A DNA stretch of 7,055 bases from IMG/VR virus record IMGVR_UViG_2802429231_000006; one strand, written 5' to 3'. The position numbers and the translations under genes are program-made. The notes below the pieces were generated by a model. It did not search any database, was not told the origin of the DNA, and saw only the letters and a program-made list of their open reading frames with translations. Positions within the stretch are counted from its first letter, which is position 1. Each line of letters opens with the position of its first letter. This stretch comes from a virus (taxonomy: Duplodnaviria; Heunggongvirae; Uroviricota; Caudoviricetes). This document shows, in pieces, positions 1,779 to 7,055 of the stretch.

Positions 1779-2054
1779 ATGAACAAAGAAAATGTGATTA
1801 CCCTGGACAATCCGGTCAAGCGTGGTGAGCAGGTTATCGAACAGGTCACGCTGATGAAACCCAATGCCGGGACGCTGCGCGGTGTCAGTCTGGCTGCGGT
1901 CGCAAATTCCGAAGTCGATGCACTGATTAAAGTGCTGCCGCGCATGACGGCACCGATGCTGACCGAGCAGGAGGTCGCCGCGCTGGAACTGCCTGACCTT
2001 GTGGCGCTGGCCGGTAAGGTGGTCGGTTTTTTGTCGCCGAACTCGGTGCAGTAA
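1779..2054 (+). CDS. E: Tail assembly chaperone gpE (zero-frame product)
   Basis: 91-aa ORF with ATG at 1779 and TAA at 2052-2054; position and size match P2 gene E between FII and T. Confidence 0.88.
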   Translation: MNKENVITLDNPVKRGEQVIEQVTLMKPNAGTLRGVSLAAVANSEVDALIKVLPRMTAPMLTEQEVAALELPDLVALAGKVVGFLSPNSVQ

Positions 2055-2206
2055 CGTTTCCGAAAAATCTCTCGGTCGATGACCTGATGGCGGATGTGGC
2101 AGTGATATTTCACTGGCCGCCATCAGAACTGTATCCCATGAGCCTGACCGAACTCATCACATGGCGCGAAAAGGCGCTCCGGCGAAGCGGAAACACGAAT
2201 GAGTAA
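1779..2206 (+). CDS. E+E': Tail assembly chaperone gpE+E' fusion made by programmed -1 ribosomal frameshift
   Basis: Slippery heptamer T TTT TTG at 2027-2033 lies near the 3' end of E; after a -1 slip the frame stays open for about 57 codons (…LSVDDLMADVAVIFHWPPSELYPMSLTELITWREKALRRSGNTNE) to TAA at 2204-2206, giving a product of about 142 aa as known for P2 E+E'. The extension has no start codon of its own, so it is absent from the ORF track. Confidence 0.8.
2027..2033 (+). other. Programmed -1 frameshift slippery site TTTTTTG
   Basis: Heptanucleotide in X XXY YYZ register relative to the E reading frame, positioned a few codons before the E stop; conserved mechanism in P2 E/E' and analogous to lambda G/GT. 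Confidence 0.75.
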
Positions 2207-4646
2207 CAATGTAAAATTACAGGTATTGCTCAGGGCTGTTGACCTGGCATCCCGCCCGTTTAAATCCATCCGCACAGCGAGCAAATCGCTGTCGGGGGAT
2301 ATCCGGGACACACAAAAATCACTGCGCGAGCTGAACGGTCACGCATCCCGTATTGAGGGATTTCGCAAGACCAGTGCACAGCTCGCCGTGACTGGTCAGG
2401 AACTGAAAAAAGCCAGACAGGAAGCCGCAGCTCTGGCTGTCCAGTTTAAAAATACTGAACGACCGACAAATGCACAGGCAAAGGCAATGGAAGCCGCGCG
2501 TAAAAATGCGTCTGAGTTACAGGCGAAATATAACAGCCTGAGATTGTCGGTACAGCGCCAGCGTCAGGAATTGAGTCAGGCGGGTATTAATACCCGTAAT
2601 CTGGCGCATGATGAACGAGGGCTGAAAAACCGTATCAGTGAAACCACCGCACAGCTTAACCGTCAGCGTGACGCGCTGGCACGTGTCAGTGCACAACAGG
2701 CAAAACTTAACGCAGTCAAACAGCGTTATCAGGCCGGAAAGGAACCGGCCGGAAATATGGCCTCGGTGGGCGCTGCCGGTGTGGGGATTGCGGCGGCGGG
2801 AACGATGGCCGGAGTTAAGTTGCTGATGCCCGGTTATGAGTTTGCGCAGAAAAACTCAGAATTGCAGGCCGTGCTCGGAGTGGCAAAAGACTCCGCCGAA
2901 ATGGCCGCGCTCCGCAAGCAGGCGCGCCAGCTCGGCGATAATACCGCCGCCTCGGCGGATGATGCGGCCGGTGCGCAGATTATCATTGCGAAAGCGGGTG
3001 GAGATGCTGCGGCTATTCAGGCGGCAACGCCGGTCACGCTGAATATGGCACTGGCGAATCAGCGGTCGATGGAAGAAAACGCGCAACTGTTGCTGGGGAC
3101 TAAGGCATCCTTTCAACTGTCAAATGATGATGTCAGCCATGTGGGCGACGTGTTGTCGGCAACGATGAATAAGTCGGCGGCTGATTTTCAGGGACTCAGT
3201 GATGCACTGACTTACCTCGGGCCGGTTGCGAGGACGGCAGGTGTAAGTCTTGAGCAGGCAGCGGCCATGACAGGTGTGCTGCATGACAATAACATCAGGG
3301 GGTCAATGGCGGGTACGGGTAGCAGTGCCGTTGTCACCCGATTACAGGCACCGACTGGAAAAGCATGGGATGCACTCAAAGAGCTTGGCGTTAAAACCTC
3401 GGACAAAAAGGGAAATATGCGTCCGTTGTTCACCATTCTGAAAGAGATTCAGGCCAGCTTTGATAAACACAAGCTGGGAACGTCTCAGAAGGGGGAATAC
3501 CTTAAAACCATTTTTGGTGAGGAAGCCCTGAAATCAGCGAACGTTTTACTGGCAGCGGCAGCAAGCGGAAAACTGGATACGCTGACCGCCACGCTGAAAG
3601 CCTCGGACGGTAAAACGGAAGAGCTGGTTAAAATCATGCAGGATAACCTCGGCGGTGACTTTAAGGAGTTTCAGTCCGCTTATGAGGCGGTGGGGACAGA
3701 CCTGTTTGACCAGCAGGAAGGCGCACTGCGTAAGCTCACTCAGACGGCCACAAAGTATGTGTTAAAACTCGACGGCTGGATCCAGAAAAACAAATCACTG
3801 GCATCAACCATCGGCCTCATTGTCGGTGGCGCGCTGGCGCTTATTGGCATCATCGGTGCAATTGGTCTTGTAGCCTGGCCGGTTATCACCGGCATCAATG
3901 CCATCATCGCGGCAGCAGGCGCAATGGGGGCAATCTTCACGACGGTTGGCAGTGCTGTTATGACCGCCATCGGGGCGATTAGCTGGCCGGTTGTGGCTGT
4001 GGTGGCTGCCATTGTCGCCGGGGCGTTGCTTATCCGTAAATACTGGGAGCCTGTCAGCGCATTCTTTGGTGGTGTGGTTGAAGGGCTGAAAGCAGCATTT
4101 GCGCCAGTGGGGGAACTGTTCACGCCACTTAAACCGGTGTTTGACTGGCTGGGTGAAAAGTTACAGGCCGCGTGGCAGTGGTTTAAAAACCTGATTGCCC
4201 CGGTCAAAGCCACCCAGGACACCCTGAACCGTTGCCGTGACACGGGCGTCATGTTCGGGCAGGCACTGGCTGACGCGCTGATGCTGCCGCTTAATGCGTT
4301 CAACAAACTGCGCAGTGGTATTGACTGGGTACTGGAAAAACTCGGTGTTATCAACAAAGAGTCAGACACACTTGACCAGGCCGCCGCCAGAACTCAAGCC
4401 GCCACGTATGGCAGCGGTGGTTATATTCCGGCGACCAGCTCTTATGCAGGTTATCAGGCTTATCAGCCGGTCACGGCACCGGCTGGCCGCTCTTATGTGG
4501 ACCAGAGTAAAAACGAATATCACATCAGCCTGACGGGTGGTACTGCGCCGGGGACACAGCTCGACCGCCAGTTACAGGATGCGCTCGAAAAATACGAGCG
4601 GGATAAACGTGCGCGCGCCCGTGCCAGCATGATGCATGACGGTTAA
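2199..4646 (+). CDS. T: Tail tape measure protein (P2 gpT family)
   Basis: 815-aa ORF with ATG at 2199 overlapping the E' stop by 8 nt; Ala/Gln-rich N-terminal region that looks coiled-coil, long Gly/Ala-rich hydrophobic central segment and the expected position after the chaperone genes; same length as P2 T. Confidence 0.93.
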   Translation: MSNNVKLQVLLRAVDLASRPFKSIRTASKSLSGDIRDTQKSLRELNGHASRIEGFRKTSAQLAVTGQELKKARQEAAALAVQFKNTERPTNAQAKAMEAARKNASELQAKYNSLRLSVQRQRQELSQAGINTRNLAHDERGLKNRISETTAQLNRQRDALARVSAQQAKLNAVKQRYQAGKEPAGNMASVGAAGVGIAAAGTMAGVKLLMPGYEFAQKNSELQAVLGVAKDSAEMAALRKQARQLGDNTAASADDAAGAQIIIAKAGGDAAAIQAATPVTLNMALANQRSMEENAQLLLGTKASFQLSNDDVSHVGDVLSATMNKSAADFQGLSDALTYLGPVARTAGVSLEQAAAMTGVLHDNNIRGSMAGTGSSAVVTRLQAPTGKAWDALKELGVKTSDKKGNMRPLFTILKEIQASFDKHKLGTSQKGEYLKTIFGEEALKSANVLLAAAASGKLDTLTATLKASDGKTEELVKIMQDNLGGDFKEFQSAYEAVGTDLFDQQEGALRKLTQTATKYVLKLDGWIQKNKSLASTIGLIVGGALALIGIIGAIGLVAWPVITGINAIIAAAGAMGAIFTTVGSAVMTAIGAISWPVVAVVAAIVAGALLIRKYWEPVSAFFGGVVEGLKAAFAPVGELFTPLKPVFDWLGEKLQAAWQWFKNLIAPVKATQDTLNRCRDTGVMFGQALADALMLPLNAFNKLRSGIDWVLEKLGVINKESDTLDQAAARTQAATYGSGGYIPATSSYAGYQAYQPVTAPAGRSYVDQSKNEYHISLTGGTAPGTQLDRQLQDALEKYERDKRARARASMMHDG

Positions 4647-4660
4647 GGAGGTGACGAAAA

Positions 4661-5140
4661 ATGATGCTCGCGTTAGGTATGTTTGTTTTTATGCGCCAGA
4701 CGCTGCCACACCAGACCATGCAGCGTGAATCAGATTATCGCTGGCCGTCAAATTCCCGTATCGGTAAACGGGATGCCTTTCAGTTTCTCGGTGTGGGTGA
4801 GGAAAACATCACGCTTGCCGGTGTGCTTTATCCCGAACTGACCGGCGGCAAGCTGACGATGACCACGCTCAGACTGATGGCAGAGGAAGGCCGGGCGTGG
4901 CCGTTGCTGGATGGCACCGGCATGATTTACGGCATGTATGTCATCGGCAGGGTGAGTGAAACAGGGAGTATTTTCTTTGCAGACGGCACACCCCGAAAAA
5001 TTGATTTTACGCTGTCGCTCACCCGCGTTGATGAATCACTGGCCGCGCTGTATGGCGATATCGGTAAACAGGCGGAATCGCTCATCGGTAAGGCTGGCAG
5101 TATGGCGACCAGATTCACGGGTATGACGGGGGCGGGATAA
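4661..5140 (+). CDS. U: Tail protein gpU (tail terminator/completion family)
   Basis: 159-aa ORF with ATG at 4661 preceded by AAGGAGG at 4645-4651; same size and position as P2 U. Confidence 0.9.
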   Translation: MMLALGMFVFMRQTLPHQTMQRESDYRWPSNSRIGKRDAFQFLGVGEENITLAGVLYPELTGGKLTMTTLRLMAEEGRAWPLLDGTGMIYGMYVIGRVSETGSIFFADGTPRKIDFTLSLTRVDESLAALYGDIGKQAESLIGKAGSMATRFTGMTGAG

Positions 5141-6303
5141 TGCTGGATGCGCTGACATTTGATGCAGGCAGTACGCTGACGCCGGATTACATGCTGATGC
5201 TCGACAGCAGGGATATTACCGGCAATATCAGCGACCGTCTGATGAGCATGACCCTGACGGATAACCGGGGCTTTGAGGCTGACCAGCTTGATATTGAACT
5301 GAACGATGCCGACGGGCAGGTCGGGCTGCCGGTTCGTGGCGCTGTCCTGACGGTGTATATCGGCTGGAAAGGTTTTGCCCTGGTATGCAAAGGGAAATTT
5401 ACCGTTGATGAGGTTGAACACCGGGGCGCGCCGGATGTGGTCACCATCCGCGCCCGGAGTGCAGATTTTCGCGGGACGCTCAATTCCCGCCGGGAAGGCT
5501 CCTGGCATGACACCACACTCGGTGCGATTGTTGAGGCGATAGCCTCCCGTAACAAGCTGGAGGCCAGTGTCGCTCCGTCACTGGCCGGAATTAAAATCCC
5601 GCACATCGACCAGTCGCAGGAGTCTGATGCGAAATTCCTGACCCGTCTTGCAGAACGCAACGGCGGTGAGGTGTCGGTAAAAATGGGAAAACTGTTGTTT
5701 CTCAAAGCGGGGCAGGGGGTGACGGCCAGCGGTAAAAAAATCCCGCAGGTCACCATCACCCGCAGCGACGGCGACCGTCATCATTTTGCGATTGCTGACC
5801 GTGGAGCTTACACCGGCGTAACGGCAAAGTGGTTACACACCAAAGACCCGAAGCCGCAAAAGCAGAAGGTAAAACTGAAACGCAAAAAGAAAGAAAAACA
5901 CCTGCGCGCACTGGAGCACCCGAAAGCGAAACCAGTCACGCAGAAGAAAGCGCCAAAAGCACCGGAAGCGCGCGAAGGTGAATACATGGCCGGTGAGGCT
6001 GACAACGTTTTTGCCCTGACTACGGTTTATGCCACGAAAGCACAGGCCATGCGCGCCGCTCAGGCGAAGTGGGATAAACTGCAACGGGGCGTTGCGGAGT
6101 TCTCCATCAGCCTGGCTACCGGTCGGGCAGATATTTACACGGAAACACCGGTCAAAGTGTCTGGCTTTAAGCGCGTCATAGACGAGCAGGACTGGACAAT
6201 CACTAAGGTGACACATTTTCTGAATAATAGCGGCTTCACGACGTCCTTAGAGCTTGAGGTCAGGCTTTCTGATGTGGAGTACGAAACAGAAGATGATGAG
6301 TGA
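5140..6303 (+). CDS. D: Late control gene D protein gpD (tail/baseplate hub-like protein)
   Basis: 387-aa ORF whose ATG overlaps the U stop (TAATG at 5138-5142), suggesting translational coupling; same length and position as P2 D; contains a Lys/Pro-rich basic segment. Confidence 0.9.
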   Translation: MLDALTFDAGSTLTPDYMLMLDSRDITGNISDRLMSMTLTDNRGFEADQLDIELNDADGQVGLPVRGAVLTVYIGWKGFALVCKGKFTVDEVEHRGAPDVVTIRARSADFRGTLNSRREGSWHDTTLGAIVEAIASRNKLEASVAPSLAGIKIPHIDQSQESDAKFLTRLAERNGGEVSVKMGKLLFLKAGQGVTASGKKIPQVTITRSDGDRHHFAIADRGAYTGVTAKWLHTKDPKPQKQKVKLKRKKKEKHLRALEHPKAKPVTQKKAPKAPEAREGEYMAGEADNVFALTTVYATKAQAMRAAQAKWDKLQRGVAEFSISLATGRADIYTETPVKVSGFKRVIDEQDWTITKVTHFLNNSGFTTSLELEVRLSDVEYETEDDE

Positions 6304-6321: not shown

Positions 6322-6350
6322 TTGTTTTGTAAGGATAAATTAACTAAAAT
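6322..6350 (+). promoter_or_regulatory. Candidate sigma70 promoter for ogr (TTGTTT-N17-TAAAAT) with T-rich upstream region
   Basis: -35-like TTGTTT at 6322-6327 and -10-like TAAAAT at 6345-6350 with a 17-bp spacer, about 35 bp upstream of the ogr ATG; P2 ogr is known to have its own promoter. Called by sequence pattern only. Confidence 0.45.
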
Positions 6351-6384
6351 GGCACCATCAACAAAACCGGAAGAGGTGCTCGCG

Positions 6385-6603
6385 ATGTTTCATTGTCCTT
6401 TATGCCAGCATGCCGCACATGCGCGTACAAGCCGCTATATCACTGACACGACAAAAGAGCGTTATCACCAGTGTCAGAACGTGAATTGCAGCGCCACGTT
6501 CATCACTTATGAGTCGGTACAGCGATACATTGTGAAGCCGGGAGAAGTCCACGCCGTAAGGCCGCACCCGTTGCCGTCAGGGCAGCAAATTATGTGGATG
6601 TAA
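6385..6603 (+). CDS. ogr: Late transcription activator Ogr (Cys4 zinc-finger protein)
   Basis: 72-aa product from ATG 6385 (MFHCPLCQHAAHARTSRY…) preceded by GGAAGAGGTG at 6369-6378; C-x2-C-x22-C-x4-C zinc-binding motif; size and sequence match P2 Ogr. The 93-aa ORF in the track begins at a TTG inside the putative promoter and is an over-extension. Confidence 0.9.
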   Translation: MFHCPLCQHAAHARTSRYITDTTKERYHQCQNVNCSATFITYESVQRYIVKPGEVHAVRPHPLPSGQQIMWM

Positions 6604-6613
6604 TTACAAACAG

Positions 6614-6646
6614 AAGCCCCTCAGTCGAGGGGCTTTCAACTTTGTT
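6614..6646. terminator. Bidirectional rho-independent terminator between convergent ogr and the minus-strand gene
   Basis: GC-rich 9-bp stem (6614-6622 pairing with 6627-6635, core GCCCCTC/GAGGGGC) with loop AGTC, followed by T-rich sequence on the + strand (TTTcaacTTTGTTT) and by a U-rich tract on the minus-strand transcript (revcomp of 6601-6613). Confidence 0.7.
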
Positions 6647-6653
6647 TAGGAGC

Positions 6654-7055
6654 TTATTTCCCTGTGTAAAGACGTGTTTGGGATGAAAGTAACACTTGCC
6701 CCTGTTTAGGCGTCAACGAACCTATTTCATTGCATGTTTTTAATGGTTCGGAAAAAACATAACCGATGGATTTATATTGATTAACTATGCTTATTTCTTT
6801 GATTTTTTTGAGATATGAAACAGGCGTGTCTTTTGTCCAGACTGGTGTGCATACACCCGTCATAATCAGGTTGTTGTAGGCGTCAGGAGAGATTTCTTTG
6901 CTAGGAAGCACCACCGTAAGCGAGTTGTTTTTATTCGTGATTTCTAGGGGTTGCCATGGTTTAAGCTGCTTTTGAAGGGTTTTAATATCACTCGCGTTTG
7001 CGTTGAGTGAAATTATTAAGGTGGCTATTGCCATCACTGATTTAAGAGTTGCCAT
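6654..7055 (-). CDS. Hypothetical secreted/periplasmic protein, 133 aa, with N-terminal Sec signal peptide; unknown function
   Basis: Complete ORF from ATG (revcomp of 7053-7055) to TAA (revcomp of 6654-6656); N-terminus MATLKSVMAIATLIISLNANA followed by SD has a positive n-region, hydrophobic core and A-x-A cleavage motif; two Cys in the mature part; AT-rich unlike the phage genes; no family recognised from memory. Confidence 0.65.
   Translation of the reverse strand: MATLKSVMAIATLIISLNANASDIKTLQKQLKPWQPLEITNKNNSLTVVLPSKEISPDAYNNLIMTGVCTPVWTKDTPVSYLKKIKEISIVNQYKSIGYVFSEPLKTCNEIGSLTPKQGQVLLSSQTRLYTGK

What the first reader, a model, noticed from the sequence alone, without database searches (positions are those of the whole stretch)
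6654..7055. AT-rich gene for a small secreted protein sits where P2 has attP and int
In P2 the region right after ogr is attP followed by the leftward integrase gene. Here the minus-strand gene is instead a 133-aa protein with a clear signal peptide (ANA|SD cleavage motif), two cysteines and no integrase features, in distinctly AT-rich sequence. It converges on ogr and shares its terminator. Two readings are possible: (a) a prophage-borne accessory (moron) gene, for example an envelope-acting exclusion or fitness factor, or (b) the first host gene beyond the prophage end. I cannot assign a family or function from sequence alone.
Basis: partly seen in the sequence, partly recalled or inferred. 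Interest (0 to 1): 0.6.

Follow-up and report, generated by a model that had tools for sequence, protein, structure and literature searches.

The report
Secreted-protein cargo gene in P2-like prophage
The gene is real and belongs to the P2-like prophage rather than the host: it is an optional cargo gene, inserted between ogr and the phage attachment site, that encodes a small exported protein of a conserved family with no known function.

Summary
Window 6654-7055 (-) encodes a 133-aa protein with an N-terminal signal peptide and two conserved cysteines. Its DNA is 39% GC against 55% for the rest of the window. It converges on ogr across a shared hairpin terminator.

The gene does not replace attP and int. 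It is a ~475-bp cassette inserted between the ogr terminator and attP.

In a genome 100% identical over the gene (E. coli M45), the 47-bp attR core lies 163-209 nt beyond the gene's start codon. That core is the 3' end of the CpxQ sRNA. Int sits at the other prophage end, next to cpxP.

The same gene lies between ogr and int in free phage genomes (Yersinia phages GMS190 and P37, Salmonella phage FSL SP-004). It is missing from K-12's empty cpxP-fieF site and from phage Wphi, which uses the same attP. Of complete E. coli genomes, 44 carry the cassette and 613 have the cassette-free junction.

So reading (a), a moron, is supported and reading (b), a host gene, is refuted.

The protein matches PHROG 3807 (function unknown). 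In all 79 viral contigs examined, homologues lie next to gpD. It has no Pfam, NCBIfam, PADLOC or PDB relative. My best guess, at low confidence, is a periplasmic binding protein that acts in superinfection exclusion or envelope protection.

The parts
6385..6603 (+). ogrK, the P2 late-gene activator (72 aa). It is the neighbour on which the gene converges.
   Evidence: Pfam Ogr_Delta E = 2e-21 and NCBIfam PRK09678 E = 1.1e-52, matching residues 22-93 of the longer TTG-started ORF. The RefSeq annotation agrees.
6613..6636 (.). G+C-rich hairpin that serves as a bidirectional terminator for ogr and the 133-aa gene. It also marks the left boundary of the inserted cassette.
   Evidence: Terminator-like on both strands. 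Fold z-scores are -4.4 and -3.25. Homology with the cassette-free phage Wphi ends at L002 9437, which is window 6636.
6637..7055 (-). The part of the ~475-bp AT-rich cassette that lies inside the window. The cassette continues about 55 nt past the window end, with a conserved leader and then a second hairpin plus T-run.
   Evidence: The cassette is absent from Wphi between two copies of the hairpin (L002 9438-9910). GC is 39% against 55%. It is a divergence island: 73.5% identical between prophages whose flanks are 95-100% identical.
6654..7055 (-). Coding sequence of the 133-aa exported protein, a member of PHROG 3807. The stop codon is at 6654-6656.
   Evidence: ORF. PHROG 3807 match at E = 5.6e-56 over the full length. 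dN/dS 0.08-0.20. Homologues.
6993..7055 (-). Predicted Sec signal peptide, residues 1-21, with cleavage after A-N-A.
   Evidence: Hydropathy profile and the -3/-1 rule. Low pLDDT over residues 1-17. The feature is conserved across the family, and in distant members it is replaced by N-terminal transmembrane anchors.
6657..6992 (-). Mature domain, residues 22-133: 112 aa, pI 9.4. It is an alpha/beta fold carrying C69 (6849-6851) and C108 (6732-6734).
   Evidence: AF2 model with mean pLDDT 87.4 and pTM 0.79. Elements in order: H21-30, E38-42, E45-49, H57-73, E87-91, E97-102, H104-111, H116-125, E127-131. Invariant residues are L27, C69, N92 and G98.

Best explanation
Shown (confidence about 0.95). 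Window 6654-7055 is a phage-borne accessory gene. It sits in a self-contained AT-rich cassette inserted between the ogr terminator and attP of a P2-like (Peduovirus) prophage. That prophage is integrated into the 3' end of cpxQ, between cpxP and fieF.

The gene encodes a ~12.6-kDa basic protein with a cleavable Sec signal peptide and two conserved cysteines. It belongs to an uncharacterised family, PHROG 3807. In P2-like phages from Enterobacterales to Burkholderia, members of this family lie next to the tail-hub gene D and ogr.

Inferred (confidence about 0.4). The protein is exported to the periplasm. The two cysteines, one on helix 57-73 and one on helix 104-111, probably form a disulfide. 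The conserved residues are structural (Leu, Gly, Trp, Asn, Phe, Cys) and include no catalytic constellation, so the protein most likely works by binding something rather than by catalysis.

The gene is probably expressed from the prophage. It has the same orientation as the immunity repressor (C -> int -> attP -> gene on the circular map), and in some distant phages it lies directly behind the repressor gene.

The most likely role is lysogenic conversion at the cell envelope, specifically superinfection exclusion. The protein would block an incoming phage in the periplasm after adsorption, by binding a tail-tip or ejection component or a host envelope factor the phage needs. Glo of the P2-like vibriophage K139 is a periplasmic phage-exclusion protein but is not homologous to this protein.
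For: Location inside the prophage:
- The attL and attR core repeats flank the gene.
- The gene is present in the free phages GMS190 (97.7% identity), P37 (69%) and FSL SP-004 (59%), between ogr and int.
- It is absent from K-12 and from phage Wphi, which has the same attP.
- 613 complete E. coli genomes have the cassette-free junction and 44 have the cassette.

Family and linkage:
- PHROG 3807 match, and 378 clusters in the profile search.
- In 79 of 79 IMG/VR loci the homologue is convergent with gpD, and 76 of 79 also have ogr nearby. Two layouts occur: D-ogr-X and D-X-ogr.
- The same linkage is seen in Dickeya, Paraburkholderia and a metagenomic phage.

Extracytoplasmic location:
- The signal peptide is conserved across the family.
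- Distant members carry the domain behind N-terminal transmembrane anchors.

Non-enzymatic character:
- The pattern of conserved residues.

Linkage to the lysogenic module:
- C, int and X share one orientation in P37 and FSL SP-004.
- The order is HTH repressor -> (one gene) -> X in L016-L019 and L111.

Conflict-type evolution:
- X is only 73.5% identical between prophages whose gpD, ogr and attP arm are 95-99% identical.

Functional analogue:
- K139 Glo is annotated as a periplasmic protein involved in phage exclusion (PMC4870250 cites Nesper et al. 1999).
Against: There is no expression, localisation or phenotype evidence of any kind.

No sigma-70 promoter passes the consensus scan upstream of the gene in M45 or P37. 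Only a -10-like hexamer (TATGAA, TATAAC or TATAAA) is conserved in the leader, so expression from the prophage is unproven.

An intrinsic-terminator-like hairpin lies about 60 nt upstream on the sense strand.

The protein is not homologous to Glo (hhalign probability 2%) and matches no PADLOC defence model.

Overall dN/dS of 0.1-0.2 indicates purifying rather than diversifying selection.

The position next to gpD and ogr may only reflect a permissive insertion point at the end of the late operon.
Confidence: 0.4

Rival explanations
1. The protein is a lysogenic-conversion factor that benefits the host in ways unrelated to phage defence. For example, it could be a periplasmic inhibitor or immunity-like protein against lysozymes, bacteriocins, or the peptidoglycan-targeting effectors of type VI secretion systems. 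It could also be an envelope-stress or colonisation factor.
For: It is small, periplasmic, cysteine-containing and apparently non-enzymatic, like many periplasmic inhibitor and immunity proteins. One metagenomic homologue is fused to a VasI domain, a family associated with type VI secretion (PF11319, E = 4.8e-10). It has the cargo-gene architecture and AT-rich composition. It sits in a prophage found in animal, poultry and human E. coli isolates.
Against: There is no sequence or structural similarity to any known inhibitor or immunity family. The VasI fusion is a single case on contigs of about 1 kb. The near-exclusive association with P2-like phages fits a phage-centred role better than a general host fitness role.
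Confidence: 0.3
2. The protein has a lytic-cycle accessory function for the phage itself. For example, it could be a periplasmic factor made during infection that modulates lysis, protects the infected cell, or stops progeny phage from being wasted on already-infected cells or debris.
For: The gene is tightly linked to the late tail genes D and ogr across very distant P2-like phages. No clear constitutive promoter was found. The leader is highly conserved, which suggests regulated expression.
Against: It is transcribed opposite to the late operon and is insulated from it by terminators on both sides. It is dispensable: Wphi, P2 and most E. coli P2-like prophages lack it. I found no Ogr-type TGT-N12-ACA element at about -55 when inspecting the upstream sequences shown. 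That inspection relied on my recollection of the consensus.
Confidence: 0.15
3. It is an ordinary host chromosomal gene that merely abuts the prophage end.
For: In all six E. coli genomes inspected the gene sits at one chromosomal position, next to fieF.
Against: The attR core lies beyond the gene. The gene is absent from the empty K-12 site. It is present in virion-derived phage genomes. In other genera it occurs at other chromosomal sites, for example next to pflB in Dickeya. It is never found without ogr in 5,426 complete E. coli genomes.
Confidence: 0.01

Closest known systems
PHROG 3807. Annotated members include Burkholderia phage KS14 gp9, Salmonella phage FSL SP-004 SP004_00135, Yersinia phage P37 QIW90038 and Serratia phage KSP20 orf1.
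   Same: Full-length HMM match (E = 5.6e-56, residues 1-133 against profile positions 1-135 of 135). Same size, signal peptide and two cysteines. Same position convergent with gpD and ogr in P2-like phages.
   Different: Nothing separates the window protein from this family. It is a new allele: 97.7% identical to GMS190 and about 70% to P37. The family has no assigned function in any source consulted. The KS14 genome paper, PMC3091744, was searched and gives no discussion of gp9.
Glo of Vibrio cholerae phage K139 (Peduoviridae)
   Same: A small (137 aa) signal-peptide-bearing periplasmic protein encoded by a P2-like temperate phage in the int/immunity region. Its GenBank record describes it as involved in phage exclusion (PMC4870250 cites Nesper et al. 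1999).
   Different: No detectable homology (hhalign probability 2%). glo lies between orf2 and int inside the cI operon, not between ogr/D and attP. Glo's function was tested experimentally; this protein's has not been.
P2's own non-essential lysogenic-conversion genes: old, tin and Z/fun (from my own knowledge), and the described P2 cargo hotspots (PMC9122126, PMC13586616)
   Same: Optional cargo in defined slots of an otherwise conserved P2 backbone, present in some relatives and absent in others.
   Different: This gene occupies a different slot. The hotspots named in the PMC13586616 passage I read are GpA-GpQ, within the tail genes downstream of GpL, int-att and int-primase. The ogr/D-att slot was not named in the passages retrieved; I did not read the whole paper. 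The product is exported rather than cytoplasmic, and no defence model matches it.
Envelope-located superinfection-exclusion proteins of other phages: T4 Spackle, T5 Llp, HK97 gp15 (from my own knowledge; the T5 Llp preprint 10.64898/2026.03.26.714494 is listed)
   Same: Small phage-encoded proteins that are exported or membrane-targeted and act by binding in the envelope.
   Different: No sequence or fold similarity. The only signal was a Pfam T4_Spackle hit at E = 0.26 for one family member, which is noise. This protein is neither a lipoprotein (unlike Llp) nor an integral membrane protein (unlike gp15).
Morons of lambdoid phages, as defined by Hendrix and colleagues (from my own knowledge)
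   Same: An extra gene between conserved neighbours, with deviant base composition, flanked by terminator hairpins, and absent from close relatives.
   Different: An autonomous promoter, part of the classical definition, could not be demonstrated.

Membership tests
PHROG 3807 (phage protein family of unknown function) | Significant full-length match to the family HMM | tested here: met
   E = 5.6e-56, 189 bits, residues 1-133 against profile 1-135 of 135.
Moron / prophage cargo cassette | Present in some phages and absent from otherwise near-identical ones, with sharp boundaries | tested here: met
   Wphi has the same ogr and attP but lacks L002 9438-9910. 613 E. coli genomes lack the cassette and 44 carry it.
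Moron / prophage cargo cassette | Base composition different from the surrounding phage genome | tested here: met
   GC 39.3% against 55.1%; GC3 39.6% against 62.1% for gpD.
Moron / prophage cargo cassette | Its own terminator | tested here: met
   The hairpin at 6613-6636 is terminator-like on the minus strand, z = -3.25.
Moron / prophage cargo cassette | Its own promoter, and expression from the repressed prophage | tested here: inconclusive
   No consensus sigma-70 site was found. A -10-like hexamer and the leader are conserved. Expression cannot be tested with these tools.
Sec-exported periplasmic protein | N-terminal n-h-c signal peptide with small residues at -3 and -1, and no lipobox | tested here: met
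   K5, hydrophobic residues 6-16, then A-N-A|S. The feature is conserved in 61 homologues. Transmembrane-anchored variants occur. SignalP was not available.
Sec-exported periplasmic protein | Experimentally shown periplasmic location and a disulfide bond | not testable with these tools
   Needs PhoA fusions, cell fractionation, and a DsbA-dependence test.
Tyrosine integrase (the gene P2 has beyond attP) | Phage_integrase catalytic domain | tested here: not met
   No Pfam or NCBIfam hit. The real int lies at the attL end.
Host core gene of the cpxP-fieF interval | Present at this locus in prophage-free strains | tested here: not met
   K-12 has only cpxQ between cpxP and fieF. All 44 genomes with the gene also have ogr beside it.
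K139 Glo exclusion protein | Sequence or profile homology to Glo | tested here: not met
   hhalign probability 2%.
K139 Glo exclusion protein | Phage-exclusion phenotype | not testable with these tools
   Requires plating and injection assays.
Known anti-phage defence systems (PADLOC-DB 2.0) | Match to any defence-protein HMM | tested here: not met
   No hits at E <= 1 for the window protein or four diverse homologues.
DUF4431 (a UniRef label on homologue P0030) | Match to the Pfam DUF4431 model | tested here: not met
   A Pfam scan of all 61 family members, including P0030, at E <= 1 lists no DUF4431 hit.

The most novel reading that the evidence does not exclude
The family could be a dedicated periplasmic 'anti-injection' factor of P2-like phages. 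On this reading it recognises the tip of incoming contractile injection machines: the gpD/VgrG-like hub, the spike, or the tape-measure protein of P2-like phages, tailocins or type VI secretion systems. Its conserved linkage to gpD, the single VasI fusion, and the deep allelic divergence in near-identical backbones would then reflect co-evolution with those tips. That would also make the D/ogr-att junction an additional cargo or defence slot of Peduoviridae, one not named in the hotspot passages I retrieved.
Probability: 0.1. Interest if true: 0.65.

Novelty: new member of a known kind. Interest (0 to 1): 0.3.

Why it matters
The gene is one more uncharacterised prophage cargo gene, so it is not a surprise in itself. 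It does have features that make it a reasonable experimental target:

- It is exported to the periplasm.
- It is under purifying selection.
- Homologues occur in P2-like phages from E. coli to Burkholderia, in the same place next to the tail-hub gene.
- It exists as deeply diverged alleles in otherwise near-identical prophages.
- It occupies a slot (ogr/D-att) that was not among the P2 cargo hotspots named in the passages I retrieved.

If it proves to be an exclusion or immunity factor, it would add a periplasmic mechanism to the mostly cytoplasmic defence repertoire described for P2-like prophages.

Tried and rejected
- Pfam, NCBIfam and PADLOC scans of the protein and its homologues found nothing usable.
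- Sequence and profile searches against PDB gave nothing better than E = 0.3.
- Foldseek against PDB found no hit at E <= 0.001.
- Foldseek against the viral structure library (BFVD) found only two hits at E <= 0.001, KSP20 orf1 (a family member) and one unnamed sequence.
- The AlphaFold-database library (afdb50) was not available.
- The pattern-based scan of genome contigs failed with the broad alignment and returned a single locus with the narrower one.
- Pfam scans of longer fusion proteins gave one VasI fusion and otherwise uninformative or sub-threshold hits.
- Context look-ups for distant representatives mostly hit contigs of 1-2 kb.
- Promoter scans found no site upstream of the gene.
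- Inspecting the upstream sequence by eye, I found only TGT-N13-ACA within the Int arm-type repeats, too far upstream for an Ogr-type late promoter. I rejected that idea.
- Homology to K139 Glo was rejected.
- The UniRef label 'DUF4431' on one homologue is not supported by the Pfam model.
- The Rfam scan found no RNA family in the region.
- Literature searches for the protein accessions and for phrog_3807 returned nothing.
- The KS14 genome paper does not discuss gp9.

Full report
**1. What is in the window**

The window is the right-hand late region of a P2-like prophage. It holds the tail sheath gene FI (1-1191), tube gene FII (1204-1722), E/E' (1779-2206), tape measure T (2199-4646), U (4661-5140), D (5140-6303) and ogr (6385-6603), followed by the ORF in question. 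RefSeq annotation of near-identical E. coli genomes agrees.

The ORF runs 6654-7055 on the minus strand and encodes 133 aa. Its ATG is the last triplet of the window. In E. coli M45, which is 100% identical over window 6640-7055, the upstream in-frame codons are TAA GGA TTT TCT, and an AAGGA Shine-Dalgarno lies 7 nt before the ATG. The ORF is therefore complete.

**2. Check of the observation**

All descriptive points hold.

- *Signal peptide.* K5, then a hydrophobic stretch at residues 6-16, then A-N-A|S-D. The AlphaFold model is disordered over residues 1-17 and well ordered from residue 21 (mean pLDDT 87.4, pTM 0.79).
- *Cysteines.* There are two, C69 and C108. C69 is invariant and C108 is at least 90% conserved across 61 homologues.
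- *Composition.* GC is 39.3% against 55.1% for the rest of the window.
- *Terminator.* The gene converges on ogr across a 50-nt spacer. The hairpin there (6613-6636) looks like a terminator on both strands and folds much better than shuffled sequence (z = -4.4 and -3.25).
- *Coding status.* dN/dS between alleles is 0.08-0.20.

**3. Phage gene or host gene**

The 47-nt sequence GACACCATCCCTGTCTTCCCCCACATG[C/A]TGTGGGGGTTTTTTTTATC is shared by three kinds of site:

- the prophage-free K-12 site (L011 2845-2891);
- the attP regions of phages GMS190, P37, FSL SP-004 and Wphi;
- both ends of the prophage in strain M45.

In M45 the two copies are attL (L113 9050-9096), between cpxP and int, and attR (L002 10019-10065), 79 nt before fieF. 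The gene (L002 9455-9856) lies between them, and its start codon is 163 nt from the attR core. Homology to the free phage GMS190 runs from the gene to the end of the core at 99.5-100% identity.

K-12 has nothing but the cpxQ sRNA between cpxP and fieF. In the packaged phage genomes P37 and FSL SP-004 the order is D - ogr - gene - about 325 nt containing attP - int - C.

All 44 complete E. coli genomes with the gene also have ogr beside it. All six I inspected are at cpxP-fieF. This is a known P2-like insertion site: prophage Wphi1 of E. coli W sits there (PMC3032704). In Dickeya a homologue sits at the end of a P2-like prophage next to pflB, a different chromosomal site.

Reading (b), a host gene, is therefore refuted. 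Reading (a), a prophage-borne gene, stands.

**4. Anatomy of the insertion**

Phage Wphi has the same ogr and the same attP but lacks the gene. Aligned with M45, homology stops at the 3' end of the ogr terminator hairpin (L002 9437, which is window 6636) and resumes at L002 9911. The single Wphi hairpin aligns with both flanking hairpins of M45.

The cassette is therefore about 475 bp. It consists of the gene, a ~55-nt leader, and a second hairpin with a T-run on the sense strand about 60 nt upstream of the ATG.

Across alleles, that upstream hairpin keeps its structure while its sequence changes. The leader keeps a -10-like hexamer (TATGAA, TATAAC or TATAAA), a nearly invariant CTCAACCAAATGTTTATTAAGGA block, and the Shine-Dalgarno sequence. 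No canonical sigma-70 promoter passes the scan, so the promoter and the timing of expression remain open.

attP is still there, just beyond the window. Int is at the other end of the prophage, as in any integrated P2-type phage.

**5. How optional is it**

613 complete E. coli genomes have the Wphi-type junction in which ogr is followed directly by attR. 44 have the cassette.

Between window-type and P37-type prophages, gpD is 97% identical, ogr 99%, the attP arm 95% and the core 100%. The gene is only 73.5% identical, with dS about 1.0. It is a sharply bounded divergence island with at least two deep alleles, of 133 and 135 aa.

**6. The protein family**

The protein matches PHROG 3807 (function unknown) over its full length. 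Nothing matches in Pfam, NCBIfam or PADLOC.

Word-seeded searches found 65 clusters. An exhaustive profile search found 378 clusters at 50% identity, 227 of them at E <= 1e-10.

In IMG/VR, 79 of 79 loci with a homologue have gpD convergent and close by. Of these, 54 have the layout D-ogr-X and 22-25 have D-X-ogr. The same linkage holds in Klebsiella phage ST147-VIM1phi7.1, Burkholderia phage KS14 (gp9), Paraburkholderia prophages and a metagenomic phage.

In Paraburkholderia (L016-L019) and in L111, the gene is co-oriented with the HTH repressor gene and lies just downstream of it. On the circular map of P37 and FSL SP-004, C, int and the gene all point the same way.

**7. Structure**

The confident model is a small alpha/beta domain. 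Its elements in order are H21-30, E38-42, E45-49, H57-73, E87-91, E97-102, H104-111, H116-125 and E127-131. The two cysteines lie on helices 57-73 and 104-111.

- Foldseek against PDB finds nothing at E <= 0.001.
- Foldseek against BFVD finds two hits at E <= 0.001: KSP20 orf1, a family member, and one unnamed sequence.
- A profile search of PDB sequences finds nothing better than E = 0.3.

The conserved residues (L27, L31, G67, C69, W73, N92, G98, F101, C108, T127) do not look catalytic.

**8. Likely function**

*Shown.* This is a phage-borne, optional, exported small protein that belongs to a conserved family found next to gpD in P2-like phages.

*Inferred.* It is periplasmic, probably disulfide-bonded, and acts by binding. 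It is likely expressed with, or like, the lysogenic module. I put superinfection exclusion or envelope protection first, at about 0.4. The reasons are:

- its location in the periplasm;
- its orientation and linkage to the repressor;
- the cargo-cassette architecture;
- the allelic divergence inside near-identical backbones;
- the precedent of K139 Glo.

K139 Glo is a 137-aa periplasmic exclusion protein of a P2-like vibriophage (PMC4870250). It is not homologous to this protein (hhalign probability 2%), so it is only a functional analogue.

The rivals are a host-benefit factor such as an inhibitor or immunity-like protein (0.3), a lytic-cycle accessory function (0.15), and a host gene (refuted).

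**9. Novelty**

The gene is already in databases as a hypothetical protein. The exact sequence occurs on 61 contigs, and the family is PHROG 3807. The kind of element, a prophage cargo cassette, is well known.

What this analysis adds:

- exact delimitation of the cassette;
- proof that it lies inside attR;
- its consistent linkage to gpD in the 79 viral loci and the other phages examined;
- evidence that the domain is extracytoplasmic.

The P2 hotspots named in the PMC13586616 passage I read are GpA-GpQ, within the tail genes, int-att and int-primase. The ogr/D-att slot was not named in the passages retrieved. I did not read the whole paper.

I rate this a new member of a known kind, with modest interest (0.3).

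Noticed in passing
Just beyond the window end. L002 10019-10065 (attR), L113 9050-9096 (attL), L011 2845-2891 (K-12 attB).: The 47-nt attachment core of this phage group (Wphi, P37, GMS190, FSL SP-004) covers the last 44 nt of the CpxQ sRNA, that is, the cpxP terminator (cpxQ is annotated at L011 2831-2888). Integration rebuilds it. In lysogen M45 both copies carry the phage variant, A instead of C, in the terminator loop.
   Followed up: partly
Window 6654-7055 compared with L024 and L004: The gene is a sharply bounded divergence island. It is 73.5% identical at the nucleotide level between prophages whose gpD (97%), ogr (99%), attP arm (95%) and core (100%) are nearly the same. This points to deep alleles exchanged by recombination in the flanks.
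   Followed up: partly
L002 9857-9916 (the ~55-nt leader just past the window end) and its counterparts in L004, L005, L031-L040: The 5' leader block CTCAACCAAATGTTTATTAAGGA is almost unchanged in alleles whose proteins are only about 45% identical. It is better conserved than the coding sequence, which hints at a regulatory element in the leader.
   Followed up: no
Window 6613-6636 and L002 9917-9940: The cassette is bracketed by two diverged copies of the same G+C-rich hairpin. The cassette-free phage Wphi has a single copy that aligns with both.
   Followed up: yes
[not shown]
   Followed up: partly
Window 6322-6603: The longest ogr ORF starts at TTG 6322 (93 aa). The NCBIfam model PRK09678 matches residues 22-93, and RefSeq annotates the 72-aa protein from ATG 6385.
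   Followed up: yes
Window about 5850-5990, inside gpD: gpD contains a lysine-rich low-complexity stretch (KPQKQKVKLKRKKKEKH...KAKPVTQKKAPKAPE). It coincides with an AT-skew peak of about 0.5.
   Followed up: no
Window 1779-2054 and 2051-2206: The tail-assembly gene E and the short GpE-family ORF overlap, as in the P2 E/E' pair, which is known for programmed frameshifting. No slippery site was sought.
   Followed up: no
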